64,000 bases of DNA from contig BDGG01000011.1 in the NCBI GenBank assembly GCA_001949185.1, forward strand, positions 1,137,552 through 1,201,551. The letters run 5' to 3'. This DNA comes from Ramazzottius varieornatus. Taxonomy: Eukaryota; Animalia; Tardigrada. Position 1 is the first letter of the stretch; the number at the start of each line of letters is the position of its first letter. The notes beneath the pieces are model-generated. The model worked only from the letters and a program-made list of their open reading frames with translations, was not told the origin of the DNA and made no database searches. Both the position numbers and the translations under genes were made by a program. Below are positions 3,320 through 6,300 of this stretch, piece by piece.

Positions 3320-6300
3320 ATGCATATCAAGCAAGTGACCATCCAAGGCTTCAAAAGCTACAAAGATCAGACGGCAGTTGAGCCTTTCACCAAGAAGCAC
3401 AACGTCGTCGTGGGGAAGAACGGTTCCGGCAAAAGGTAGGAGATTCGAGCTCTTGTTTCTGAAGATGAGAATGTGAACTTCTGCGTTGTCTTCGTTTTTT
3501 GCTGACAGATTATCTTCCAGGTAAGAATAAATATCTGGGCCGTAATTCCGATTCACATATTTTTCAGTAATTTCTTCAAAGCGATCCAGTTTGTCCTGGG
3601 CGACGAGTCCGAGTTTGGCCGATTAGGGGCTGATTCTCGTCAGAATTTGCTTCATGAAGGAGCAGGCAACCGCGTTCACACAGCCTATGTCGAGATCGCC
3701 TTCGACAACTCTGACGGTCGCATTCCTGTCGATTCCGAAGAAGTCGTCCTGCGCCGAACGATCTCGTCCAAGCAGGACCAGTACACCCTTAATGGCAAGT
3801 CAGCCACAAAGCAGGATGTGGCCAATCTACTGGAGACGGCTGGCTTTTCGAAAAGCAACCCGTACTACATCGTCAAGCAGGGAAAGGTAAGAAGAAAAAA
3901 GACCTGAACAAACTGAATTCTGTTGTGTCGGGTTTGGCAGGCTGTGCTCTGCTTCTTGAGTTCGATATCCCATTGATCCCACCCAACTAGTTTTAGCCTC
4001 GCGGCTTGCTAGTTTTTGGTTTTTGATTGTTATTTTGGTTTTCAGGTAAACGAATTGTCGACTGCACCGGCCGACAAGCGTCTCAACCTCCTTTACGAAG
4101 TGGCTGGCACCAAAGTTTACGATGAACGTCGGAGAGAAAGCCAAGAAGCCATGAAGGAGGCAACGGAGAAGACAGAACAGACGGCGAAGGCCATTGCTAA
4201 CATCGAAGAACGGCTGAAGACGCTCGAAGAGGAGAAGGAGGATCTGAAGAAGTATCAGCACTACGATAAGAAACGACGCATGCTGGAGCACACCGTCTTC
4301 ACGAAAGACCTTGACGAAGTCCGGAATAAGGTCCTGACTTTGGAACAGAAGCGAGAGGAAAAAGATGCCACATTAAAAGGTAAGCATGGAAAACTGGTTT
4401 TCTCCAATTTTGCGCTTCCGCTCAATCAACAAAGTTTATCAACTCCAATAGCGAGATTCTCGTAAAGTAAAATGGTAAGTTGCGCCCAATCAAATTTGCG
4501 AGTACAAACCGTTTGTCCTAGTCCTACTGCGCAACGGCGGCAACGCATTTTACCATGTTGAAAAGTGGGCACAGGGAACGGGAGCAGATGCGCCGTGGTT
4601 CGAAGTTTCGCTGTAATGGGTTTCTGATCAATCCGACGAGAGCTTTTCATGTTTTTCTCCGTATCAGGGTTAAGGAAGGAGATGAGGGAGCACGGCGACG
4701 AAATCCAAAAGTCGGAGAAGTTGCTTCGGGATGCAAAGGCGAAAGTCTCCCAGCTGAACGAAGAGAAGCGTCAGCTCGCTCAAGAGCTGGACGAGCACCA
4801 GCGTCGCTTGACGCAACTCGAACTTTCCATCAAAGATACCGACACCGAAGATCAGCAAGGCAAGAGCAACCGAGACCAGATGAAGAACGAGCAGAAAAGG
4901 CTGGAAGACCAGATTCAGATGACCGAGCTGGATTTGGCCAACCTGAAGCCAAAGTACGAAGAGGCCAAAAGAGCGGAAGATGAAGCTTCGCAGAGGATCC
5001 AGAGGTTGAAGCAACGAAGGAACGAACTTTTCGACAAACGAAGTCGTGGAGATCGATTCAGAAACAAAGAAGAACGCGATAGGTAAACCTGAGAATTCCT
5101 TGAAGTATTCCACGCTTTTTTACGAATATTCGAATGTGTTTTATAATTTTCGGTTGTTTTTTCCTTCGTAGATTTCTGACGGGTGAAATCAGGCGCCTCA
5201 ACGCGACCATCGCCGAAAAGCAGAGCACTATGAACGCCCTCGAGAACAAGCTGGAAGCGGACACGAAGAAGATTTCCGAGTTGGAGAAGAGCGTCAAGGA
5301 ACTGGAAGAGTCCGTCGGGAAGAACTCTGACATTTACAAGAGCAACCAAGTCACCTTCTACAACGAGAAGCAACAGCGGGATGAGAAAGTTACCATCAGG
5401 AAAGACTTATGGCGACAGGTAAGCTGGCGCTTGATTCCACTGCGTATGAATGCTTGTGCTGGCTAATACTAGTGGTCGTCTCTGTTTTAGGAAAACGCTC
5501 TAAGGCAGTCATTGGGAACCAAGAAAGATGAGCTGGACCAGCGGGAGAACAGCTTAAAGTCCCTGATGGGCAAGAGCGTTCTGCGTGGTCTGGAAGCGGT
5601 CAAGTCGGTGATCGAAGACTGGCGGCAGAATCCTTCCAGAGACAACGATGCTCGAGTTAAAGGCTATCACGGTATCTTTCAATCCTACACTTTACTTTAG
5701 CAATCTCGACAAAAAACTGAAGAAGATCGTTTGCTCAAGTGGCGCACCGTTTCGGTCTGTAACGCTGAGAACTTGTTCCACTTAGGAAAACAATGCAATC
5801 AGGCTGTCTAAACGGCGCACGCTTTCAGCAAGTGACAATGCAAAGGTGCGCCACTTGCGGAAATAATCTTTTCGAGCTTCCTTCGCCGAGCTTTTATATA
5901 TTCATGTAACACAGTGAACTTAATTTTGGGCTTTCCTCTAGTAGAATCGAGTAATATTTAACCCGGCGTCTTGCTGGATGGTTTACAGGTATGTTGGTGG
6001 AGAATATCAAGTGCGACGAGTTAGTCTTCACTGCGGTGGATACGGTGGCAGGAAACCGGCTCTTCCACCACATCGTCGCCAACGACGAAATCGCCTCGGC
6101 CATCCTCGAAGAGATTAACAGGCGAAACCTACCCGGAGAGTCCACGTTCCTTCCCCTGAACCGTCTCACCAACAGGGTCCATGAAGTGCCTGATTTGGGT
6201 GAGGTGGAAGCTATGAGGCTGATCGACCGCATCAAGTACTCGGTAAACTTCTTTGCCCATATTTAAATTCCTGAAGGCCAAAAATAGAAGTTCGACGAAA

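What the first reader, a model, noticed from the sequence alone, without database searches (positions are those of the whole stretch)
3743..3784. SMC3 carries a natural acetyl-mimic substitution (KK to KQ) at the Eco1/ESCO acetylation site
Seen: codons read [14 protein letters not shown] (AAG 3770-3772, CAG 3773-3775). Known: this loop is LRRVIGAKKDQY in human and RRTVGLKKDDY in budding yeast. The tandem lysines (human K105/K106, yeast K112/K113) are acetylated by ESCO1/2 or Eco1 to block Wapl/Pds5 release. Changes at yeast K113 and G110 were isolated as eco1 suppressors, and K-to-Q is the standard acetyl mimic. Here the second Lys is Gln and the conserved Gly is Ser, while all ATPase motifs are intact. 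Inference: this lineage or paralog may have a rewired, partly acetylation-independent cohesin cycle, possibly with altered or lost ESCO, Wapl, Pds5 or HDAC8.
Basis: partly seen in the sequence, partly recalled or inferred. Interest (0 to 1): 0.78.

Follow-up and report, generated by a model that had tools for sequence, protein, structure and literature searches.

The report
Tardigrade cohesin lacks key acetylation lysine
In two water-bear genera the chromosome-holding protein SMC3 has glutamine where nearly all other eukaryotes have a switchable lysine, a change lethal in budding yeast, which likely leaves half of this on/off switch permanently "off" even though genes resembling the switch's enzyme and partners are still present.

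Summary
The window holds the intact 16-exon SMC3 gene of the tardigrade Ramazzottius varieornatus (RvY_15108). Its loop reads [12 protein letters not shown]107 and Q108 match human K105 and K106. Spliced contigs from 7 runs (5 studies) show the same CAG codon. Hypsibius exemplaris shares KQ, and its KQ protein is the only SMC3 listed in a published proteome. An unnamed sister sequence keeps KK. KQ is rare: 4 of 432 SMC3 clusters read, none in a named non-tardigrade animal. Other lineages lost this lysine too (Meloidogyne KN, two choanoflagellates, Mucorales TL).

Gly-to-Ser is ordinary.

Most likely Q108 permanently removes the K106-NIPBL salt bridge and half of the acetyl switch. Animal cells tolerate this (chicken QQ, RR and AA alleles are viable), probably helped by co-evolved loader contacts such as a tardigrade-only insertion beside a yeast K113Q-suppressor site. 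ESCO likely remains for K107 or other targets. No functional test was possible. I found no report of it in the open literature searched.

The parts
3320..10081 (+). SMC3 gene (RvY_15108), 16 exons: 3320-3435, 3568-3886, 4046-4379, 4668-5082, 5172-5418, 5491-5671, 5989-6242, 6551-6701, 6777-6899, 7124-7395, 7462-7704, 8100-8375, 8438-8560, 8655-8873, 9186-9476, 9761-10081; 1294 aa
   Evidence: Joined frame equals P0002; all 15 introns skipped in contigs of 4 runs; Pfam SMC_N and SMC_hinge
3743..3784 (+). Acetylation hairpin, [14 protein letters not shown] (residues 98-111)
   Evidence: gap-free alignment to human and yeast chains; hairpin turn between two strands in a model of the near-identical P0003, pLDDT about 90
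3773..3775 (+). CAG, Gln108, in place of human K106 / yeast K113
   Evidence: same codon in contigs of 8 runs; Gln also in H. exemplaris
3770..3772 (+). AAG, Lys107, the retained first acceptor (human K105 / yeast K112)
3764..3766 (+). TCG, Ser105, in place of the conserved Gly (yeast G110); arose on the same branch as Gln108 but is common elsewhere
9462..9467 (+). Two-residue insertion D1184-P1185, four residues after G1180 (human G1188 / yeast R1199, a K113Q-suppressor site next to NIPBL); candidate compensation, untested
   Evidence: In both named tardigrades, 0 of 141 full-length animal-set sequences, P in 0 of 61 broad representatives; site role
3605..3610 (+). Two-residue insertion E52-S53 in the N-terminal head; shared with the KK sister sequence P0005, so older than KQ

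Best explanation
This is the working cohesin SMC3 of Ramazzottius and Hypsibius, in which the second acetyl-acceptor lysine has been replaced by glutamine, which likely makes that position permanently uncharged and unswitchable while the rest of the cohesin cycle is likely kept. Shown: the codon, splicing, orthology, sharing between two genera, rarity, and listed homologues of ESCO2, WAPL, NIPBL, MAU2, RAD21 and PDS5. Inferred from yeast and human structures: Q108 cannot make the K106-NIPBL E1899 salt bridge, so loader stimulation of the ATPase and Wapl-dependent release would both be damped at all times, as after acetylation. Inferred: the animal survives this because animal cohesin depends less on the site than budding yeast does, and because loader-facing surfaces co-evolved (D1184-P1185 insertion, L1119T, P1169A are candidates). 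Inferred: ESCO is retained for K107, probably a poorer substrate without the neighbouring Lys, and for other targets. So: a half-wired switch, not a lost pathway.
For: Real and spliced. Main copy: one SMC3 per species among the best 120 hits of two searches; the KQ protein OQV23478.1 is the only SMC3 among 4 'structural maintenance' rows of the H. exemplaris proteome, at log2 level about 18.4 against 17.9 for SMC1A. Derived state: KK sequence P0005 is sister to the KQ clade, SH-aLRT 98-99. Otherwise constrained: 12 of 193 highly conserved columns differ. Regulators: ESCO2 RvY_02712/BV898_11265, WAPL RvY_16171, NIPBL RvY_07039, PDS5 and WAPL proteins detected. Mechanism: salt bridge and its loss in K113Q; K113Q abolishes Scc2/4 stimulation; S. 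pombe K106Q reduces DNA loading; K113T/N abolish release. Tolerance: QQ, RR, AA as sole SMC3 restore viability and cohesion in DT40 cells while ESCO1/2 stay essential. Single changes at loader interfaces rescue K113Q. Unmodified K106 binds Eco2 D677 during K105 acetylation.
Against: No functional data on tardigrade cohesin. Partner sequences (NIPBL, SMC1, ESCO, PDS5, STAG) could not be fetched, so compensation is unshown; regulator presence rests on BLAST columns of a published table. The DT40 result fits equally well with no effect at all. Gln, Asn and Thr are each one base from Lys, so their recurrence does not show selection for mimicry. G1180 itself is unchanged, the yeast V492 suppressor site aligns to Ser as in S. 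pombe, and the C-terminus of the KK sister is not available, so the DP insertion may predate KQ. Only two named species and one unnamed cluster carry tardigrade KQ.
Confidence: 0.55

Rival explanations
1. Relaxed constraint: in animals the second lysine has little effect on its own, and it drifted to Gln in a fast-evolving lineage with no real change to the cohesin cycle.
For: QQ, RR and AA all support DT40 growth and cohesion. Tardigrade SMC3 sits on a long branch. The second site is non-Lys in 16 of 432 clusters and the first in 15 of 432, with mixed residues including Gly, Leu, His, Ser. Identity of Q in two genera is weak evidence since 88% of the N-terminal head is identical anyway.
Against: Lys in 99% of 141 animal-set and 97% of 61 broad full-length sequences; many longer branches keep KK (e.g. 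P0197, P0311, Panagrolaimus). Only 12 of 193 such columns changed and most changes are conservative. The single K-to-Q change impairs purified cohesin of both yeasts.
Confidence: 0.25
2. Full bypass: K107 is no longer acetylated either, so cohesin is constitutively Wapl-resistant and its cycle runs without SMC3 acetylation; ESCO is kept only for other substrates or is degenerate.
For: Yeast K113Q is viable only when K112 cannot be acetylated (K112R) or Eco1 is removed. The loop lost both the P+1 Lys and the Gly of the strand that Eco2 binds. DT40 data point to other essential ESCO targets. Mucorales lack both lysines, so a switch-free SMC3 may be possible.
Against: K107 is kept in all KQ, KH, KN, KG and KT sequences, which suggests it still matters, although DNA binding alone could explain that. 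ESCO2 and WAPL homologues are retained and expressed. Yeast R-Q and eco1-deleted states remain cohesion-defective. QQ does not rescue esco1 esco2 loss.
Confidence: 0.17
3. Artefact or side copy: the codon is an assembly error, or this is a specialised paralogue beside a canonical KK gene.
For: The genome could not be searched. Hit lists are cut at 120-150, so a very divergent copy could be missed. An earlier AI note describes such a paralogue in another genome (unchecked).
Against: Same codon in 8 runs; same residue in H. exemplaris; no second contig at 80-85% likeness; only SMC3 in the proteome; best hit of Paramacrobiotus fairbanksi SMC3 in both genomes is the KQ gene.
Confidence: 0.03

Closest known systems
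Canonical SMC3 (human, PDB 6wg3/7w1m; S. pombe Psm3, 6yuf; S. cerevisiae Smc3, 7ogt)
   Same: Full-length orthologue (E 3e-286 to human), all ATPase motifs, hinge, first Lys and the Asp of the KKD loop kept.
   Different: Second Lys is Gln, Gly is Ser; two 2-residue insertions in the head; an acidic tail of about 85 residues.
Engineered smc3-K113Q (S. cerevisiae) and Psm3-K106Q (S. pombe)
   Same: The identical single substitution with the first Lys left in place.
   Different: Lethal and cohesion-defective in budding yeast unless K112 acetylation is blocked or a suppressor such as smc1-T1117I is present; here it is the natural, fixed state.
Yeast release-defective eco1 suppressors (K113T/N, G110R/V/W, S75R, R107I/S, D114Q/Y)
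   Same: Changes at both the K113 and G110 positions.
   Different: Gln rather than Thr/Asn, small Ser rather than bulky Arg/Val/Trp; R107 and D114 equivalents unchanged; ESCO homologue present.
SMC3-QQ/RR/AA chicken DT40 cells (PMC5749162)
   Same: Animal cells living with a non-acetylatable site while still holding ESCO.
   Different: Cell line, both lysines changed, no whole animal or meiosis.

Membership tests
SMC3 (cohesin subunit) | Split ABC ATPase head with Walker A, Q-loop, signature, Walker B and D-loop | tested here: met
   Motifs at 32, 139, 1107, 1131; Pfam SMC_N at both ends
SMC3 (cohesin subunit) | Central SMC hinge between coiled coils | tested here: met
   PF06470 E 3e-14 on exon 7; full-length alignment
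SMC3 (cohesin subunit) | Closer to SMC3 than to SMC1/2/4 or prokaryotic SMC | tested here: met
   SMC3 chains E 1e-37 to 1e-22, prokaryotic SMC and SMC2 E 1e-10 or weaker; 9 of 9 hits under 1e-100 are SMC3
SMC3 (cohesin subunit) | Expressed and assembled with SMC1 and kleisin | tested here: inconclusive
   Spliced contigs; Hypsibius orthologue detected at a level like SMC1A; assembly into a ring not tested
Canonical doubly acetylated Eco1/ESCO substrate (KKD loop) | Tandem lysines | tested here: not met
   K107-Q108
Canonical doubly acetylated Eco1/ESCO substrate (KKD loop) | Eco1/ESCO enzyme present | tested here: inconclusive
   Homologue listed by BLAST for three tardigrades; sequence not obtained, domain intactness untested
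Canonical doubly acetylated Eco1/ESCO substrate (KKD loop) | Acetylation of the first lysine in vivo | not testable with these tools
   Needs mass spectrometry
Eco1-bypass / release-defective SMC3 alleles | Neutral residue at the K113 position | tested here: met
   Gln; listed bypass alleles are T/N
Eco1-bypass / release-defective SMC3 alleles | Bulky residue at G110 | tested here: not met
   Ser; also found in KK lineages
Eco1-bypass / release-defective SMC3 alleles | Viability and cohesion without Eco1/ESCO; no Wapl release | not testable with these tools
   Needs genetics; ESCO and WAPL homologues are retained

The most novel reading that the evidence does not exclude
Probability: 0.17. Interest if true: 0.82.

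Novelty: new variant of a known kind. Interest (0 to 1): 0.58.

Why it matters
The K106/K113 lysine is treated as the conserved switch that turns cohesin from loading and looping to stable cohesion, yet a 2023 paper says its physiological role in humans has never been rigorously investigated (PMC10656103), and yeast and chicken data disagree. A living animal with the yeast-lethal allele fixed in its main SMC3, and with ESCO, WAPL, PDS5 and NIPBL homologues still present, is a natural experiment. Comparing NIPBL, SMC1 and ESCO of KQ and KK tardigrades would point to the compensating contacts and to what else ESCO is for. The other lineages found here give independent replicates. No link to radiation or desiccation tolerance is shown.

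Tried and rejected
Whole-genome search: no genome held, so paralogues and regulators were judged indirectly. Run search: no RNA holder listed as such; RNA status rests on splicing. Metagenome scan for more tardigrades: best 80 of 196 loci were 39-70% identical; 78 read KK, 2 could not be read, none tardigrade-like. Third homologue search gave no new tardigrade; Paramacrobiotus, Acutuncus, Milnesium and heterotardigrades remain unread. Coupling of Gly loss with second-Lys loss: my first pairwise read-out suggested it but had dropped a one-residue insertion in P0231/P0260; corrected, 2 of 7 against 11 of 143 representatives, Fisher p 0.11, rejected as unsupported. Independent origin of the second KQ clade (P0260, P0231): separate in all three quick trees, but the AU test did not reject one clade (p 0.055), so it is likely, not proven; the Atlas did not identify it. 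The careful tree did not finish; only quick trees are cited. Supplement searches that found nothing: PMC9145152, first 12 of 27 files of PMC5531438, HDAC8/CDCA5/dalmatian in files cut at about 4 million characters; the unseen parts may hold these genes. PMC9205776 gave no passage for the residue terms. A link to parthenogenesis was considered (H. exemplaris has a modified meiosis) but that paper does not mention cohesin and the change is shared across genera; left as a lead. No complex prediction was run, as no partner sequence was at hand; no fold search was needed.

Full report
Observation. The 42 bases read [14 protein letters not shown], with AAG at 3770-3772 and CAG at 3773-3775. They lie in exon 2 of a 16-exon gene at 3320-10081 whose joined frame has a single terminal stop and equals the NCBI protein RvY_15108 of Ramazzottius varieornatus, 1294 aa. 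It is SMC3 by Pfam and by comparison with solved structures. The loop aligns without gaps to human RRVIGAKKDQY and yeast RRTVGLKKDDY as printed in those calls, so K107/Q108 match human K105/K106 and yeast K112/K113. ATPase motifs are intact. An AlphaFold model of the 96% identical fragment P0003 puts S-S-K-Q-D at the turn between two strands, pLDDT about 90.

Not an error, and the main copy. Contigs of 4 of 4 runs from 4 studies skip all 15 introns and have 0 other letters over exon 2. Three more spliced runs from a fifth study and one DNA run, possibly the assembly's source, agree at a likeness threshold of 80%. These are contigs, so rare variants would not show. No genome was held. Indirectly: one Ramazzottius and one Hypsibius SMC3 among the best 120 of 1815 and of 2393 hits; the SMC3 of Paramacrobiotus fairbanksi has the KQ genes as best hits in both genomes; and in a H. 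exemplaris proteome table the KQ protein OQV23478.1 is the only SMC3 of 4 'structural maintenance' rows, at about the level of SMC1A. A very divergent extra copy is not excluded.

Distribution. I read the loop in 432 distinct clusters, the best-scoring hits of four searches (120, 64 new, 148 new, 100 new; 36 cluster members fetched later were left out). The pair is KK in 406; the second site is Lys in 416, Gln 4, Arg 3, Leu 3, Asn 2, and His, Gly, Thr, Ser once each; the first site is Lys in 417. The lists favour close hits, so these are not unbiased rates. Three Gln rows are Ramazzottius, Hypsibius (SAKQ) and an unnamed 96% relative. An unnamed Logan sequence, P0005, shares a 2-residue head insertion with them, is their sister at SH-aLRT 98-99, also with the loop columns removed, and reads GTKK. 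It is probably a more distant tardigrade, which would place G105S and K108Q on the Ramazzottius plus Hypsibius stem. The fourth Gln belongs to an unnamed, animal-like clade (P0260 GSKQ, P0231 GSKH) that falls apart from tardigrades in the trees, though the AU test gives p 0.055. Named non-Lys cases are Meloidogyne KN, Hartaetosiga KN, Salpingoeca KG, Owenia KR, and Mucor, Choanephora and Backusella TL; whether each is its organism's only SMC3 was not checked. The Gly is missing in 24 of 432, 18 of them with the second Lys intact, including KK nematodes and green algae, so the Ser carries little weight.

Regulators. From supplementary tables of PMC11233135 (searched by term; the large files are cut at about 4 million characters): ESCO2 homologue BV898_11265, expressed, with BLAST partners RvY_02712 and a Paramacrobiotus ESCO2-like gene; WAPL BV898_15433/RvY_16171; NIPBL BV898_16748/RvY_07039; MAU2 RvY_11522; two RAD21-like genes; PDS5 and WAPL proteins in the proteome, where ESCO and NIPBL accessions were not found. 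HDAC8 was not among 10 'histone deacetylase' rows or in the searchable parts of five tables; Sororin/Dalmatian likewise in three: inconclusive. These are BLAST labels; I could not see the sequences.

How it likely works. K106/K113 is positioned to salt-bridge NIPBL E1899/Scc2 E821, and Gln removes this (bioRxiv 10.1101/2022.11.23.517716, section 5 read whole plus passages). K113Q abolishes loader stimulation of the ATPase, is lethal, and is rescued by K112R or removal of Eco1 (bioRxiv 10.1101/2025.10.30.685539, passages and section 6); the rescued R-Q state stays cohesion-defective (PMC3279399 and PMC4279223, passages). S. pombe K106Q lowers DNA loading (PMC5786502, passages). K113T/N and G110R/V/W abolish release (PMC10656103, passages). 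In the Eco2-K105 structure the unmodified K106 binds D677 (PMC5349539, passages), so K107 may be a poorer substrate here. Against a yeast-like crisis: in chicken DT40 cells QQ, RR and AA as sole SMC3 restore growth and cohesion, while QQ does not rescue loss of ESCO1/2 (PMC5749162, passages). That matches the tardigrade state: site altered, ESCO kept. Single changes at other loader contacts rescue K113Q, among them Smc3 R1199 (human G1188). The tardigrade G1180 is unchanged, but a D-P insertion four residues on is present in both named tardigrades and in 0 of 141 animal-set sequences. L1119T behind the signature motif and P1169A are among only 12 of 193 highly conserved columns that differ. 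These are candidates only. I commit to a half-wired switch with compensation (0.55), over neutrality (0.25), full bypass (0.17) and artefact or paralogue (0.03). Gln, Asn and Thr are one base from Lys, so 'mimic' cannot be told from 'charge loss tolerated' by sequence.

Novelty. It is a member of SMC3 and not a canonical KKD substrate: a new variant of a known kind. Searches of the open library (listings and abstract starts only) showed no report: 18 papers hold both 'tardigrade' and 'cohesin', none on this by title and abstract, and none of 40 listed of 698 tardigrade papers mentions SMC3. PMC11148194 (passages) has no tardigrade term; PMC13320866 (passages) has no cohesin term; PMC5531438 was seen as passages and 12 of 27 supplements. 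Subscription papers and unseen supplements may bear on this. An earlier AI note on an arthropod SMC3 copy lacking both lysines is a lead that I did not test.

Verdict. Observation confirmed, interpretation partly supported. A specialist would be surprised that the yeast-lethal allele is the fixed, main SMC3 of an animal, and it makes a clear test available; the chicken data and several parallel cases temper the surprise, and nothing functional is shown. Interest 0.58.

Noticed in passing
P0328, P0437, P0465 (Mucor, Choanephora, Backusella): Three Mucorales SMC3 fragments read G-L-T-L-D: both acetylation lysines are gone, while Podila and Coemansia keep KK. Sole-copy status and Eco1 presence unchecked.
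   Followed up: partly
P0329, P0338-P0340 (Meloidogyne enterolobii, M. incognita): Root-knot nematode SMC3 reads T-M-K-N-D, the same change as the yeast release-defective allele K113N, and shares P-to-A at the position of residue 1169 with Ramazzottius.
   Followed up: partly
P0220, P0253 (Hartaetosiga balthica, Salpingoeca infusionum): Two choanoflagellate SMC3s have Asn and Gly at the second site and group together.
   Followed up: partly
P0260, P0335, P0336, P0231: Unnamed animal-like clade with a one-residue insertion in the loop and Gln or His at the second site; lineage not identified.
   Followed up: partly
window 9761-10081: SMC3 ends in an acidic, low-complexity tail of about 85 residues beyond the usual animal C-terminus; Hypsibius has a similar tail with a like ending.
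   Followed up: no
window 5715-5885, 6371-6486, 7874-7998, 9552-9654, 10322-10426, 11012-11187: A dispersed 80-95 base element with inverted-repeat character lies in SMC3 introns 6, 7, 11 and 15 and downstream, in both orientations, 60-85% alike; many loose ends in run contigs point to more copies elsewhere. Possibly a small non-autonomous transposon.
   Followed up: partly
window 8561-8654: Intron 13 is a GC-AG intron.
   Followed up: yes
window about 1-2385 (-): A gene head-to-head with SMC3 whose translation looks like alanyl-tRNA synthetase (motifs recalled, not tested).
   Followed up: no
window 13902-15362, 16797-20574, 62752-63156: Ankyrin-like ORF (below Pfam cut-off), an MFS transporter ORF with similar ORFs beside it, and an FHOD-type formin exon. 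An assembly gap of 279 N lies at 12175-12453.
   Followed up: no
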